Below are positions 331 through 40,350 of a stretch of DNA of 64,000 nucleotides, in pieces (within the stretch, counting starts at the first letter, position 1; the number at the start of each line of letters is the position of its first letter). The stretch lies in the NCBI GenBank assembly GCA_964016885.1, contig OZ024741.1, forward strand, positions 132,308,001 through 132,372,000, in the 5' to 3' direction. Under the pieces are notes generated by a model, which made no database searches, was not told the origin of the DNA, and saw only the letters and a program-made list of their open reading frames with translations. The position numbers were made by a program, and so were the translations under genes. The DNA comes from Eledone cirrhosa (Eukaryota).

Positions 331-1095
331 ACTAGTAACAGTGAGGGAGGGGGTGTATGGAGAATGATGGTAGTCAAAGTGGGGGTGTGAAGTTGGATGT
401 GGTGTGTGCGGAGATCACTGGATATATTTATGTGTGTATATATAAAGTATAAAAGTGTGCGTGAATAAATATTTTCAAATATATGTTAAACGTGTTGCGT
501 GTGTGTCCGTATGTGTGCATATATATATGTATACATATGATACTTTACTTAGTTTAATATCTCACATACCACTAATAGGTTGGTGTTCTTAACCGCGGTT
601 ATTTCGATATATAAACGGAAATAACCTCTGTTTTACAGTTTAATACGCAAAGGAAATTATAGCAGTTTAATTCCTGTCTATAGGAAGTTTACTTTTACTA
701 CAAATGGTGAAATAACAATAAAAAGGTGATTATGTAAAACCTGAAAAGAAACTGAATACTGGGACATGAATCACATATAGAGGAAATCTGAGTAGCGACT
801 GTTTCCATCTTATTGCACTTTTTTTAGAAATATATATTTCAACTCTATTTTCATTGGTGATAAGCTTACAGTGTGTGTATATATCTATATATATATATAT
901 ATGATATAAATATTCCAGTAGGTACTAAGTACCCACGGAAATATATATGGTGTCTATAACAGTGGTTTTTCAATGGTACTAATTTGAGATACCAGAATTA
1001 TAAAAATGAGCGGAACAAGTAAACATTAAACAATCTTTTAAATAAATTAAAATACGATTTAAATATTCACCTGTTTCTATTATATATATTCTAGT

Positions 1096-1175
1096 GCTGT
1101 GACCGACGTTTTCGATTATCAAAGGATTGGAAATTCAGAGAATTTCCAATGGAAAGAATCACCTCTTCAGACAGC
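1096..1175 (-). ncRNA. Hammerhead ribozyme, type I (inverted copy of 1506-1585)
   Basis: Minus strand: gctgt-CTGAAGA-ggtgatt...gataatc-GAAA-acgtcg-GTC-acagc. Stem II contains the hairpin attggaaattc/gaatttccaat. Confidence 0.7.
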
Positions 1176-1505
1176 TATTTCCATATCACAGGGCACAAAA
1201 GCTTTGTAGTAGTAAATATATTGCTTTCTGCCCAATGCATGAGGTCAAGCCGTTAAAGTGACCTACACATAATTAGGCCGTTAGGAAAAAGCGGGAATTA
1301 TAGACTTGTTGAAATTTCATGTTACTAGAAATTGCAGCACGAGACAACATTTTTTTTCTCTACATAGAAGGAGAATACAAATAAATGATATAAATATTCC
1401 AGTAGGTACTAAGTACCCACGGAAATATATATGGTGTCTCGTGAATTGGGCAGAAAGCAATATATTTACTACTCCAAGGCTTTTGTGCCCTGTGGTATGG
1501 AAATA

Positions 1506-1585
1506 GCTGTCTGAAGAGGTGATTCTTTCCATTCGAAATTCTCTGTATTTCCAATCTTTTGATAAGCGAAACCGTCGGTCACAGC
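1506..1585 (+). ncRNA. Hammerhead ribozyme, type I
   Basis: gctgt-CTGAAGA(1511-1517)-long stem II-GAAAC(1568-1572)-cgtcg-GTC(1578-1580)-acagc. Stem I gctgt/acagc is perfect. Confidence 0.75.
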
Positions 1586-1664
1586 ACTAGAACAGGTGAA
1601 TATTTAAATCGTATTTTAATTTATTTAAAAGAATGTTTAATGTTTACTTGTTTCCGCTCATTTT

Positions 1665-2227
1665 TATGCATCTGTGTATATAAATGTTACTAGATATAAA
1701 TTCCTTATAATTATCTCCAATTCATTTGTCGAGCAATATTTGGCCATGACTGCTACTATGGTAGTAGGCTGGCCGCTGTCTTATTAACCATTCGCTTTCC
1801 ACTGATTGACCTCGATGTCACGTGATTGATTCTTTTTGAATTTGCCACAGACGAAGAGGCAGTGACTTTATCAATGGCTAGGAATCCAGTCCACGCTTCG
1901 CTATTTCCTTTCCACTGAATTTTTTTAATAAGTTTCCAGAGTCCTCGCTATGCCTGGAGACTTACACGGAAAAAGACTTTCCTGATGACGGAATGATTTT
2001 CTATAGGGTTCTTCGGAAAATATATTTACTCCATTCCAGAAACTAATTAGTTGGAAGTGATTTTTAAGTAAGTAAGTTAATTTTATAATTTTCTTATTTT
2101 ACGTCTCTCATATGATTGTTCTGCAACCCATGCATTGAACCACAATGTTAATAAGACAAAACCTATATATTTGCTAGCATTGATATGCATCTGTGTATAT
2201 AAATGTTACTAGATATAAATTCCTTAT
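1665..2227 (+). mobile_element. ~520-bp non-coding hammerhead element with 44-bp terminal direct redundancy
   Basis: tatgcatctgtgtatataaatgttactagatataaattccttata occurs at 1665 and 2184 (period 519). Runs into (TA)n and contains the hammerhead at 1976-2058. Confidence 0.7.
1976..2058 (+). ncRNA. Hammerhead ribozyme, type I, palindromic stem III
   Basis: actttc-CTGATGA(1982-1988)-c-ggaatg...cattcc-a-GAAAC(2039-2043)-taatta-GTT-ggaagt. Stem III actaattagt is self-complementary. Confidence 0.75.
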
Positions 2228-2272
2228 ATATATATATATATATATATATATATATATATATATATATATATA

Positions 2273-2810
2273 TAAATGTTCGGTGAATCCATACGTACAT
2301 ATATATATATATGTGTGCATGTATGTATATATATATACATACTACTGTACGTCTGTATACATATATGTATGTACGTATAAATACTTATATTAAGTAACAG
2401 CCGTACTAAGAGTGGGAAATGAGATTTCGTTTCATTTTTTCCGTTTATCGTTTTCGGTGCACCCGGCCGCTTAACCCACTCGATATGCAAATTGGGCTAC
2501 TCAGCCGTTAATATGCATAAGGAAAGTATATACTTTCAGACGTTCAATCATCTGGCAGGAAGGTATACGTTGCTGACGATAGCTAATGGGCTTGAAACTA
2601 GTACAGCGTTCCTTTGTCAGTGTTGAACAAACGAGCAACGATGGCTGCTAGACACTACGGCTTAATACGGGATGTTTGTTTACAAACACACCGAGCATTG
2701 TAATAAATGTTCGGTGAATCCATACGTACATATATATATGTGTGCATGTATGTATATATACATACTACTGTACGTCTGTATACATATATGTATGTACGTA
2801 TACATACTTA
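2273..2810 (+). mobile_element. ~431-bp monomer plus ~110-bp terminal redundancy, hammerhead-bearing (retrozyme-like family A)
   Basis: taaatgttcggtgaatccatacgtac... starts at 2273 and again at 2704. Flanked by (TA)n on both sides. Further copies at 17860-18965. Confidence 0.8.
2567..2609 (+). ncRNA. Minimal hammerhead ribozyme, type I (family A)
   Basis: acgttg-CTGACGA(2573-2579)-t-agct-aatg-ggct-t-GAAAC-ta-GTA-cagcgt. Stem III is reduced to the palindrome actagt. Confidence 0.8.
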
Positions 2811-2862
2811 TATATATATATATATATATATATATATATATATATATATATATATATATATA

Positions 2863-38123: not shown

Positions 38124-38540
38124 ATTGGCAGTATCGGTAGAGGGTCGGACGGCATGCTTTGACGCATAGAGTTACGGTCCTTGCCATTCTGAGTTCAAAT
38201 CCCGCCGAGTTTAACTTTGCGTTTCATCCTTACGGGGGTCGATAAAATAAAGTACCAGTAATGCACTGGGATAATTGCTGGTCTTGTGCCAATAGTAGAA
38301 ACAATTATATATATACTTAGGGGCAGTGGATTGGCATTATCGGTAGAGCGTCAGACGCCATGCTTTGCAGCATAGAGTTATGGTCCTTTACGGTCTGAGT
38401 TCAAATCCCGCCGAAGTTAACTTTGCCTTTCATCCTTACAGGGTCGATAAAATAAAGTACCAGTAATACAATGGGTTCGATTTAATCGACTTTCCCCTCC
38501 CCCAAAATTGCTGGCCTTGTGCTTATATAAGAAACCATTA
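38124..38540 (+). mobile_element. Two tandem SINE copies (38124-38306 and 38320-38540)
   Basis: tRNA-like head (ttggcagtatcggtagag...gagttcaaatcccgcc) plus the family body. Confidence 0.9.
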
Positions 38541-38642
38541 TATATATATATATATATATATATATATATATATATATATATATATATAATGCAAAAAATA
38601 GATCACTGAGGTTTAAAGTTTAACTATTAATACATTATTTAT

Positions 38643-38714
38643 TTGATTTACATATGTTTCACTCCCCGAAGCATGTTATTTTCAATACCTTTTTAGAGAT
38701 ATCATCAGAATCAA
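38643..38714 (-). ncRNA. Hammerhead ribozyme, type I, palindromic stem III
   Basis: Minus strand: ttgatt-CTGATGA-tatctct...ggggagt-GAAAC-atat-GTA-aatcaa. It lies in a ~190-bp island between two (TA)n tracts. Confidence 0.75.
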
Positions 38715-38894
38715 TTATATACAACATATAAAAGGTATTTATTTACCGACCGTGTGTGGACCATCCTGATTGAAGCATCGAATATATATATATATATATA
38801 TATATATATATATATATATATAAAGTGAGAGAGAGAGAGAGAGAGAGAGAGAGAGAGAGAGAGAGAGAGAGAGAGAGAGAGAGAGAGAGAGAGA

Positions 38895-39380
38895 CGTTCA
38901 TGTATTTGTTTTGCAAGCTTCTTGACGATGTGCAATCGTGTATTGAAACCAATATTGTTTTGGGGGGATGATTATATTGCCAATATTTCCAATAAAAAGA
39001 AACAGACGTATCATGATTTTCACGTTATCTTTATAAATAGTTATTCGTTAGTTCGTCTAAGGTCTTTCGCCACTCATTCTGTAACCTCCTCGATGACCAT
39101 CTGTTCAGGTCTTAATCCTTTTCTTTCTGGTCTTAATCTGTTATACCACCTTGTACTCAGAAAAGACAAGGTGGTATAACAGATTAAGACCTGAAAGAAA
39201 ATGTGGCACAAAAGAGAACTGGTAGTCATTGAGGGAGTCACAGAATGTGTAACGAAAGAATTTTGACGAGCTAACCAATAACTAGTAATAAAGATGAAGT
39301 GAAAAAATGAAAAGTATATGATGAGTGTGTATTTGTATTGGCAATACTGGCAACATGACCATACCCAGATATAACAATAT
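38895..39380. mobile_element. Old fold-back element with degenerate outward-facing hammerheads and a central hairpin
   Basis: ~39040-39100 (minus) and ~39222-39285 (plus) are decayed homologues of the 17016 ribozyme. Central IR ggtcttaatctgttataccaccttgt / acaaggtggtataacagattaagacc. Confidence 0.7.
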
Positions 39381-39709
39381 ATATATATATATATATATAT
39401 ATATAGATAGATAGATAGATAGATACGGGGTAACAAGTTATCGTTATAGGTAATACAGTTAGAGGTTGTGAGTACTCTGCGTCGTGGATAGTTTTAACGT
39501 ACGGCTTTGTTTAACTCAACAAGATGTTTCCATAGTTAGACAGCGAGTTCGCAATTTCGAGCGATTAGCGACCTCTAGACTCACCTGATCAATGAAACAA
39601 TTGTCAATACCTAAAATAAAGCCCCTTGTTGTACAGCCAACCATGTTACTCTTTATTCTTTCACTATATATATATATATATATATATATATATATATATA
39701 TATATATAT

Positions 39710-39842
39710 ATAGGAACGAGTAGGACCCCGACGGCTGAGCTCAAGCCGTTTCGACGGCTAATTCTGGACTAAAAATCTTTTAGTCCAGAATTAGCCGGCG
39801 AAAGGGCTTGAGCTCAGCCGTCGGGGTCCTACTCGTTCCTAT
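39710..39842. repeat. Near-perfect ~130-bp palindrome abutting (TA)n
   Basis: taggaacgagtaggaccccgacggctgagctcaagcc... mirrored with a few mismatches. The right arm continues as unique sequence to (TA)n at ~39925. Confidence 0.9.
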
Positions 39843-39983
39843 TACCAACTCTACTACTCTAAGTATTGAGTACTTTGGTGCGTTATGGTCCATCTGGTTC
39901 CTTACCACATTTCCTTCCTTCGTTATATATATATATATATATATATATGTGTGTGTGTGTGTGTGTGTGTGTGTGTGTGTGTG

Positions 39984-40350
39984 ATAATATATGCAGTAAG
40001 AAACACAGTAAATCGTGCGTCTAATATTACACCTCAATAACTATTATATCTTTCGGACAGATTAAGGATTAATCTGTTTCGTTAGTACTAGGTGCTTGTC
40101 GCATTTAATCAGATTCTCTCGCTGATGATGCCCGTGGATTATCTGTTACAAACACACTGAGGGTGAAACAGATTAATCCCTAATCTGTCCGAGAGATATA
40201 ATAGTTATTGAGGCGGTTTATATAATATAATTTTATTTTATTTTATCATTCCGTCTGCTTCATGGTTAAATATTTCAAACAAATGTGGTTCTTCAACCCT
40301 CGTAATATTAGACGCACGATTTACTGTGTTTCTTACTACATATATTATTA
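39984..40350. mobile_element. Fold-back hammerhead element
   Basis: 39984-40030 mirrors 40302-40349, and 40032-40080 mirrors 40165-40213. The left copy is truncated exactly at GAAAC. Confidence 0.85.
40115..40196 (+). ncRNA. Canonical type-I hammerhead ribozyme
   Basis: tctctcg-CTGATGA(40122-40128)-tgccc...gggt-GAAAC-agatta-atccc-taatct-GTC(40187-40189)-cgagaga. Stem I is 7 bp and stem III is complete. Confidence 0.88.

What the first reader, a model, noticed from the sequence alone, without database searches (positions are those of the whole stretch)
1001..40350. Polarity rule: every hammerhead fold-back has 5' ends joined in the middle and ribozyme strands pointing outward
Seen in seven independent insertions: 1001-1667, 14691-15302, 16334-16548, 17860-18965, 20332-20451, 39040-39285 and 39984-40350. 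The left arm carries the ribozyme sense on the minus strand and the right arm on the plus strand. Arms are truncated unequally and the outer ends usually run into microsatellite. Established: PLEs often have an inverted truncated pLTR copy. Inference: both 3'-OH ends of a break in (TA)n prime reverse transcription of the same RNA species and the two cDNAs are joined centrally (two-ended priming), or a cDNA folds back on itself.
Basis: partly seen in the sequence, partly recalled or inferred. Interest (0 to 1): 0.75.

Follow-up and report, generated by a model that had tools for sequence, protein, structure and literature searches.

The report
Penelope elements primed from both ends
These seven mirror-image inserts are clipped ends of Penelope-type jumping genes joined head to head, a known layout, but one arm nearly always stops at a near fixed point and the other at a far one, which likely means that both cut DNA strands start copying the element's RNA at two set places.

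Summary
The polarity is real: all seven window sites point outward, and 251 genome loci of the seven families give 140 head-to-head against 0 tail-to-tail direct junctions. Tail-to-tail neighbours exist but sit across (TA)n, mostly between different families. 'Hammerhead on both arms' holds fully only at sites 1 and 4. Head-to-head layout is published (PMC3846280, PMC8557442), so the rule itself is known. What goes further: each family has two fixed 3' ends, A and B, 56-128 nt apart, and pairs carry one of each (100 of 110 classed pairs; genome-wide for one family AB 1070, BB 5, AA 2). In 28 of 100 AB pairs neither arm contains the other, which simple fold-back cannot give. Family 5 is the end of a coding Hydra-clade element; four families are 432-701-nt non-coding monomers. 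Best reading (0.65): fixed-site twin priming, matching two in vitro start sites (PMC11167929). Reads neither confirmed nor refuted the junctions. This scan found the same pattern before, in this genome and others.

The parts
897..1439 (-). Site 1 left arm, family F1 (468-nt monomer), ends at far site B then (TA)n; hammerhead core at 1170
1438..1667 (+). Site 1 right arm, ends at near site A; hammerhead core at 1511; abuts another hammerhead element (1668-2228)
14563..15127 (-). Site 2 left arm, family F2 (701-nt monomer), ends at B; hammerhead core at 15067
15119..15302 (+). Site 2 right arm, ends at A then (TA)n; no hammerhead
16247..16424 (-). Site 3 left arm, family F3, ends at B then (CA)n read outward; the first ~12 nt of this BLAST range are already repeat
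16424..16548 (+). Site 3 right arm, ends at A then (TC)14 and (TA)n; reaches about 35-40 nt further 5' than the left arm, so neither arm contains the other; half-hammerhead only
   Evidence: (L144)
17858..18532 (-). Site 4 left arm, family F4 (432-nt monomer), about 1.5 monomers, ends at A; core at 18104
18533..18966 (+). Site 4 right arm, ends at B then (TA)n; core at 18651
20265..20394 (-). Site 5 left arm, family F5 (pLTR and tail of a coding Hydra-clade element), ends at B
20393..20451 (+). Site 5 right arm, ends at A then (TA)n; junction inside the CTGATGA box, a few nt from the family's 5'-end hotspot
38895..39160 (-). Site 6 left arm, old family F6, degenerate hammerhead, ends at the far end
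39161..39377 (+). Site 6 right arm, degenerate hammerhead, ends about 56 nt earlier, then (TA)n
39984..40081 (-). Site 7 left arm, family F7 (473-nt monomer), internally deleted, GAAA half of the hammerhead, ends at A then (CA)n read outward
40080..40646 (+). Site 7 right arm, core at 40122; interrupted by other repeat DNA at about 40355-40577, resumes at 40578 and ends at B

Best explanation
The seven fold-backs are head-to-head insertions of Penelope-type element ends into TA repeats, and each was likely built by two copying events, one from each cut DNA strand, that start at two different fixed points on the element's RNA. Shown: outward polarity; two fixed 3' ends per family; one of each per pair; same family on both arms; junctions with short microhomology or added bases. 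Inferred: the element's GIY-YIG nuclease (probably as a dimer) cuts both strands of a TA tract; one 3'-OH primes at near site A and the other at far site B; each cDNA runs 5'-ward and stops on its own, or runs off the RNA's 5' end; the two cDNA ends are joined by end-joining repair. Both cDNAs most likely copy one RNA molecule, by strand displacement or, for the tandem or circular monomers, on successive units. The non-coding monomer families (F1, F2, F4, F7) would borrow the enzyme in trans. The hammerhead marks the strand but is not shown to take part.
For: Polarity: 145 of 152 opposite-strand neighbours within 400 bp are head-to-head, 140 of 140 at <=30 bp (251 loci); 19 of 19 opposite-strand pairs within 1.1 kb in a position-ordered list of 100 cores. 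One-tail rule: 100 AB of 110 pairs with both ends classed, against 50% expected, p 4e-20 (33 further pairs had an unclassed end); genome-wide exact patterns for F5 gave AB 540+530, BB 5, AA 2, where independent choice needs AB^2 = 4 x AA x BB, about 6; 7 of 7 window sites are AB; 5 direct pairs of an unselected family found in flanks are AB. Against simple fold-back: of 100 AB pairs 27 have the tail arm longer at the head, 28 are near symmetric, 17 have the tailless arm longer but wrapping round the monomer, and 28 are non-nested; 10 of the 45 pairs with the longer tailless arm have the tail piece starting within 15 nt of A, an inversion with almost no mirrored sequence, as in L1 twin priming (PMC2837659 passages). 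Of 37 pairs with both arms >=97% like the reference, 12 have the tailless arm longer. The mirror does not run on into flanks: 6 of 100 pairs had any inverted flank match within 250 bp, 3 of them near both ends. Junctions: 60 of 133 without added bases have mean microhomology 1.9 nt against 0.78 simulated (p 2e-10); 73 of 133 carry unassigned bases, some copied from nearby, some due to divergence from the reference. One template: 162 same-family against 1 cross-family head junctions at <=30 bp; 39 rare variants mirrored in both arms in 21 of 98 pairs against about 2 by chance. Enzyme: F5 continues into an RT plus C-terminal GIY-YIG frame (Pfam GIY-YIG E 0.004, below the curated cut-off). In vitro a Penelope protein cuts and extends both strands, from two start sites that bound the tail, and is predicted to be a dimer (PMC11167929, main text read).
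Against: No empty target site or target-site duplication could be defined, because ends lie in (TA)n (2 weak direct flank matches in 100 pairs). Microhomology does not separate twin priming from fold-back. Later deletions at palindrome centres could turn nested pairs into non-nested ones: among 57 non-F5 pairs asymmetry rises as identity falls (rho -0.30, p 0.02). The pile-up of tail pieces at A is not sharp (10 within 15 nt of A, 7 in the 30 nt upstream). Mirrored variants could come from gene conversion or a shared source locus, and arms still differ by 1.7-5.3 per 100 nt against 3.4-6.1 between loci. Many copies are solo, with no inverted partner, and none of 94 solo arms showed a convincing short stub of the other end, so two-ended priming is not seen in every insertion. 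PMC11167929 found no difference in start site between strands, so what enforces one A and one B is unexplained. Six of seven locus sets were the best-scoring 30 hits, not a random sample.
Confidence: 0.65

Rival explanations
1. Fold-back or self-priming: one cDNA (or an antisense transcript, as proposed in PMC3846280) snaps back and copies itself; the nuclease resolves the hairpin with a stagger that leaves the tail on one arm; later deletions reshape the centre.
For: 28 of 100 AB pairs are near-perfect palindromes and 27 are nested with the tail arm longer; microhomology excess; mirrored rare variants; asymmetry correlates with divergence; published model (passages).
Against: 28 non-nested pairs, and the tail falls on either the longer or the shorter arm, also in little-diverged pairs. 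26 of the 28 symmetric pairs are F5, and 22 of those lie at its 5'-end hotspot (-8 to +2), where unpaired copies also start, next to a TATA box at -30 and an initiator-like CCAGATT, so run-off explains them. Many junctions have no microhomology or carry added bases.
Confidence: 0.17
2. Dual priming: a protein dimer holds two separate RNA molecules, each subunit primes one DNA strand, and the dimer's asymmetry sets A against B.
For: Needs no strand displacement; explains freely overlapping arms and independent stops; predicted dimer; named for L1 in PMC2837659. 77 of 98 pairs show no rare mirrored variant.
Against: Only 1 of 163 direct head junctions is cross-family although many families share targets; 39 mirrored rare variants against about 2 expected, including five A>G changes in one pair (L227). 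Cis preference could still explain both.
Confidence: 0.13
3. Assembly or chimeric-read artefact.
For: No independent read or contig was shown to bridge a window junction; the centre of site 7 (40036-40074) had zero depth in 4 of 4 runs laid (three are reduced-representation runs of other individuals).
Against: Arms differ in sequence and length, stop at two family-specific sites, do not mirror their flanks and recur at more than 1000 loci with equal strand counts.
Confidence: 0.02
4. Two independent insertions at one spot, or selection against inward pairs.
For: Independent neighbours do occur: 31 tail-to-tail neighbours within 150 bp; 5 genome-wide for one F5 pattern.
Against: Those are tail-to-tail, 29 of 31 across (TA)n and 24 of 31 between different families, whereas head junctions are same-family and 159 of 162 lack a TA spacer.
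Confidence: 0.03

Closest known systems
Insertion unit of endonuclease-bearing Penelope-like elements (PMC3846280 passages; PMC8557442 passages)
   Same: Inverted 5'-truncated copy at the 5' end; head-to-head called the most frequent arrangement; tail often at one end only; hammerheads in pLTRs; microsatellite targets.
   Different: Here the layout is counted, the one-tail pattern is near obligatory in pairs, tails are 56-128 nt rather than 30-40, and non-nested arms argue against the published self-priming reading.
Hydra clade of C-terminal EN+ Penelope-like elements (PMC8557442 section 11)
   Same: F5's coding parent has RW[R]A, DKT, a CxCx5C linker, CxxC and CxH motifs, a C-terminal GIY-YIG, a hammerhead and (TA)n targets.
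   Different: Its 3' UTR is swollen with microsatellite-like DNA; no tree was built.
PAc Poseidon element in vitro (PMC11167929 main text)
   Same: Both strands cut and extended; two internal start sites bound the tail; hammerhead not needed.
   Different: The paper does not explain inverted copies and saw no strand difference in start site; the genome data here show one site per strand.
L1 twin priming and dual priming (PMC2837659 passages)
   Same: Both target strands prime; 3' ends point outward; heads are joined with little microhomology.
   Different: In L1 one primer uses the poly(A) tail, the other a variable internal site, and the pieces do not overlap; here both sites are fixed and internal and the pieces usually overlap, giving inverted repeats.
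Animal non-LTR retrozymes (bioRxiv 10.64898/2026.07.22.740005, part 1 of 5 read)
   Same: F1, F2, F4 and F7 are head-to-tail non-coding monomers of 432-701 nt with one type I hammerhead each.
   Different: They show the Penelope two-end footprint and head-to-head joins; circular RNA and cleavage were not tested.

Membership tests
EN+ Penelope-like element (family F5) | RT frame with C-terminal GIY-YIG endonuclease | tested here: met
   597-aa frame in L213 and two overlapping frames in L211 with RT motifs (DIENYYASI, MGAS, YRDDG) and a GIY-YIG-like end; Pfam GIY-YIG E 0.004 on the segment, below the curated cut-off; no Pfam hit for the RT part or the whole frames
EN+ Penelope-like element (family F5) | pLTR with hammerhead whose tail runs into the start of the coding frame; inverted 5'-truncated copy | tested here: met
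   L187 reads from the hammerhead through the tail into the frame; L211 shows an inverted truncated copy joined to a forward copy ending at site A
EN+ Penelope-like element (family F5) | Target-site duplication | tested here: inconclusive
   Ends lie in (TA)n; 2 weak direct flank matches in 100 pairs
Hydra clade | RWK-like motif, DKT, CxCx5C linker, CxxC and CxH motifs, (TA)n targeting | tested here: met
   RWRA, SDKT, CNCLNKEAC, CDLC, CMH read in L211 and L213 against section 11 of PMC8557442
Hydra clade | Absence of the CCHH motif; phylogenetic placement | not tested
   Two cysteines lie in the GIY-YIG core; no alignment to reference Hydra proteins or tree was made
Non-LTR retrozyme (F1, F2, F4, F7) | Head-to-tail non-coding monomer with one type I hammerhead | tested here: met
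   Majority extension closes on 468, 701, 432, 473 nt; longest ATG frame 43-63 aa; arms of up to about 1.8 monomers
Non-LTR retrozyme (F1, F2, F4, F7) | Self-cleavage and circular RNA | not testable with these tools
   Needs RNA data or a bench assay
Type I minimal hammerhead | CUGANGA, GAAA, UH, stem I, short palindromic stem III | tested here: met
   By motif for F1, F2, F4, F5, F7, matching the description in PMC4209133 (passages); Rfam showed none in the 150 rows listed
Type I minimal hammerhead | CUGANGA core in families F3 and F6 | tested here: not met
   F3: none in 317 nt; F6: TTGAGGA or TCGAGGA
L1-type twin priming | Two inverted fragments of one element, 3' ends outward | tested here: met
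L1-type twin priming | Poly(A) priming, variable internal second site, non-overlapping fragments | tested here: not met
   Both sites fixed; most arms overlap; 10 of 100 AB pairs approach the non-overlapping form. It works like twin priming but is not the L1 case.

The most novel reading that the evidence does not exclude
Fixed-site twin priming is the normal way Penelope-type elements and their retrozyme passengers integrate: an asymmetric enzyme complex assigns one of two built-in RNA start sites to each cut DNA strand and copies one RNA twice, so the puzzling inverted pLTR and the one-sided tail are two marks of a single step, with no second-strand priming problem at the far end.
Probability: 0.5. 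Interest if true: 0.75.

Novelty: new variant of a known kind. Interest (0 to 1): 0.5.

Why it matters
How Penelope-like elements make their tandem and inverted structures is named as an open question (PMC8557442, passages), and the only in vitro study leaves it unexplained. The counts here turn it into a sharp prediction for that existing assay: one start site per strand, tail on either the longer or the shorter arm, unmirrored RT errors. It also ties non-coding hammerhead monomers to the Penelope machinery by their insertion footprint. The polarity rule alone is not new. I found no paper joining twin priming to Penelope inverted ends in six searches (listings only for most hits; subscription papers and supplements not seen), but this scan has reached the same reading before on other DNA.

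Tried and rejected
Rfam scan: microsatellite-driven miRNA hits only in the 150 rows shown of 211. DNA search with site 5 found nothing because its words are too common; an exact pattern worked. Sequencing runs: no RNA holder listed; laying four runs on 14350-16600 and four on 39984-40360 gave collapsed family copies and no piece bridging a junction, so no verdict. Pfam on whole frames and PDB sequence search: nothing useful; the protein atlas gave no answer. First de-duplication by junction sequence removed real loci, including two tail-to-tail cases; it was redone by dropping 10 overlapping loci of 261. F6 end classes used an incomplete reference and account for 5 of the 10 AA or BB pairs; with a longer reference 3 readable F6 pairs are AB. 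My first clade call (Neptune, from memory of the linker) was dropped for Hydra. Leads from earlier notes: A>G enrichment among mirrored variants was not seen overall (5 of 39, all in one pair, p 0.37); a hairpin just beyond each end was inconclusive (z from -2.5 to +1.3 over 11 ends; related GCTC...GAGC stems after both F7 ends). Short inverted stubs at solo heads: none convincing in 94 arms. Reverse-transcriptase stutter as the source of end-specific (TC)n and (CA)n runs is not separated from ordinary compound-microsatellite growth.
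Full report
Observation. Self-comparison of the window finds inverted repeats at all seven stated places. A motif scan finds hammerhead cores on both arms at sites 1 and 4, on one arm at sites 2 and 7, at the junction at site 5, degenerate at site 6 and only a GAAA half at site 3. Rfam gave only microsatellite-driven hits in the 150 rows shown of 211. Mapping the window on family references shows that each insertion runs 55-130 nt beyond the mirrored part on one side, and that all seven have their fixed 3' ends outside and their variable 5' ends in the middle.

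What the elements are. The window lies in a 3.0-Gb animal genome. I fetched 30 loci for each of six families as best DNA hits and 81 for family 5, covering the first 100 listed exact cores. Majority extension closes on head-to-tail monomers of 468 (F1), 701 (F2), 432 (F4) and 473 nt (F7) with no ATG frame over 63 aa; these fit animal non-LTR retrozymes (bioRxiv 10.64898/2026.07.22.740005, part 1 of 5). F5 has 10,296 exact 26-nt cores and reads on into an RT frame with a C-terminal GIY-YIG-like domain (Pfam E 0.004 on the segment, below cut-off; nothing for whole frames). Its motifs match the Hydra clade, described as inserting into (TA)n (PMC8557442 section 11); I was led to Hydra by earlier notes. 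The parents of F3 and F6 were not found.

Polarity test. After dropping 10 overlapping loci of 261, opposite-strand same-family neighbours within 400 bp were 145 head-to-head and 7 tail-to-tail; at 30 bp or less, 140 and 0. Among the first 100 listed F5 cores, 19 of 19 opposite-strand pairs within 1.1 kb are outward. With ten family references, head junctions at 30 bp or less are same-family in 162 of 163 cases, while 24 of 31 tail-to-tail neighbours are cross-family and 29 of 31 span (TA)n; one genome-wide inward pattern gave 5 loci, all across TA. Inward pairs are therefore independent landings in TA tracts. The rule is real but published: head-to-head is called the most frequent arrangement (PMC3846280 passages) and an inverted 5'-truncated copy is a listed trait (PMC8557442 passages).

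Two fixed ends, one per arm. Counting from the hammerhead core, ends fall at 156/258 (F1), 375/503 (F2), 65/150 (F3, counted from GAAA), 248/307 (F4), 60/127 (F5) and 230/307 (F7), nearly all followed by a microsatellite, mostly (TA)n. Of 143 pairs, 110 had both ends classed: 100 AB, 6 BB, 4 AA; 5 of the 10 exceptions come from F6, whose reference was incomplete (three readable F6 pairs and five direct pairs of an unselected relative are AB). Genome-wide exact patterns for short F5 pairs gave AB 1070, BB 5, AA 2; independent choice would give AB near 6 for those AA and BB counts, whatever the detection rates. The literature says only that the tail is often at one end.

Fold-back or two primers. 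A cDNA that folds back copies itself, so one arm must contain the other. Of 100 AB pairs, 27 are nested with the tail arm longer, 28 near symmetric, 17 ambiguous because the long arm wraps round a monomer, and 28 non-nested, window site 3 among them. Ten pairs have the tail piece starting within 15 nt of A, so they are inversions with almost no mirror, the geometry of L1 twin priming (PMC2837659 passages), though the pile-up is not sharp. Symmetric pairs are mostly F5 at a 5'-end hotspot shared with unpaired copies, beside a TATA box and initiator-like sequence, which suggests run-off at the transcript start (inference). The mirror does not continue into flanks. Junctions show excess microhomology (mean 1.9 against 0.78 nt in 60 without added bases) or added bases (73 of 133, partly divergence). 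Rare variants are mirrored 39 times in 21 of 98 pairs against about 2 by chance, which favours one RNA but also fits conversion. Against my reading: asymmetry grows with divergence in non-F5 pairs (rho -0.30, p 0.02, n 57), as later central deletion would give, although 12 of 37 little-diverged pairs already have the tailless arm longer; many copies are solo with no stub; no target-site duplication or empty site was defined.

Mechanism. Shown: polarity, two ends, one per arm, same family, junction type. Established in vitro for a related element: both strands are cut and extended, from two internal start sites that bound the tail, by a protein predicted to be a dimer; the hammerhead is not needed (PMC11167929 main text; supplements not read). 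Inferred: each strand's 3'-OH takes one site, the two cDNAs stop independently and are joined by repair. Confidence 0.65; fold-back with staggered resolution 0.17; two RNAs 0.13; artefact 0.02; independent insertions 0.03.

Artefact check. Public runs did not settle it: family copies collapse, and the centre of site 7 had no depth in four runs. The argument against artefact is structural: unequal, diverged arms, family-specific ends and more than 1000 loci.

Novelty. Six literature searches showed no paper that explains Penelope inverted ends by twin priming; most hits were seen as listings only, and subscription papers are not held. The scan's own notes hold the same reading for this and other genomes (48 findings in at least 14 genomes hold my search words); these are not independent support. 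Verdict: polarity known; the near-obligate one-tail rule with non-nested arms is a new variant that makes an open mechanism testable. Interest 0.5.

Noticed in passing
window 32024-34077: Nested inverted repeat with 98-99% identical arms and a TA-rich centre (33134-33464); no hammerhead core and no match in 261 fetched loci. It may be a fold-back duplication of local DNA at a TA tract, a different process from the seven sites.
   Followed up: partly
window 16196-16258 and 16546-16574; loci L121-L150: End-specific runs between element and (TA)n: (TC)n after F3 end A in 6 of 27, (CA)n after F3 end B in 13 of 18, never swapped; (TC)n after none of the other 300 ends. Telomerase-like stutter at initiation or later microsatellite growth seeded by the edge.
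   Followed up: partly
L181-L261 and L121-L150: 5' ends pile up at -8 to +2 in F5 (about 60 of 148 arms) and at -104 to -98 in F3 (15 of 48), each at a similar GATACCC(C)AG stretch; F5 has a TATA box 30 nt upstream. Likely transcript starts; TATA and initiator consensus recalled.
   Followed up: partly
L227: Five rare A>G changes mirrored in both arms of one F5 pair, like RNA editing fixed in DNA.
   Followed up: no
window 12221-14162: About 17 copies of a 101-149-nt TA-containing unit with inverted units at the right end; no hammerhead core.
   Followed up: no
window 2866-2945 and 3255-3296: 80-bp imperfect palindrome between two TA tracts with a partial relative nearby; no other match in the fetched loci.
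   Followed up: partly
window 41602-64000: 54-bp satellite, about 415 copies, 93% matches, runs to the window end.
   Followed up: no
window 1982, 2573, 17055, 38708: Hammerhead-bearing copies without an inverted partner.
   Followed up: partly
G000: The exact F5 core occurs 6426 times forward and 3870 reverse; the strand excess is unexplained (perhaps tandem arrays).
   Followed up: no
L211:4561-8480: Near-complete coding element in two overlapping frames, with an inverted truncated copy to its left.
   Followed up: partly
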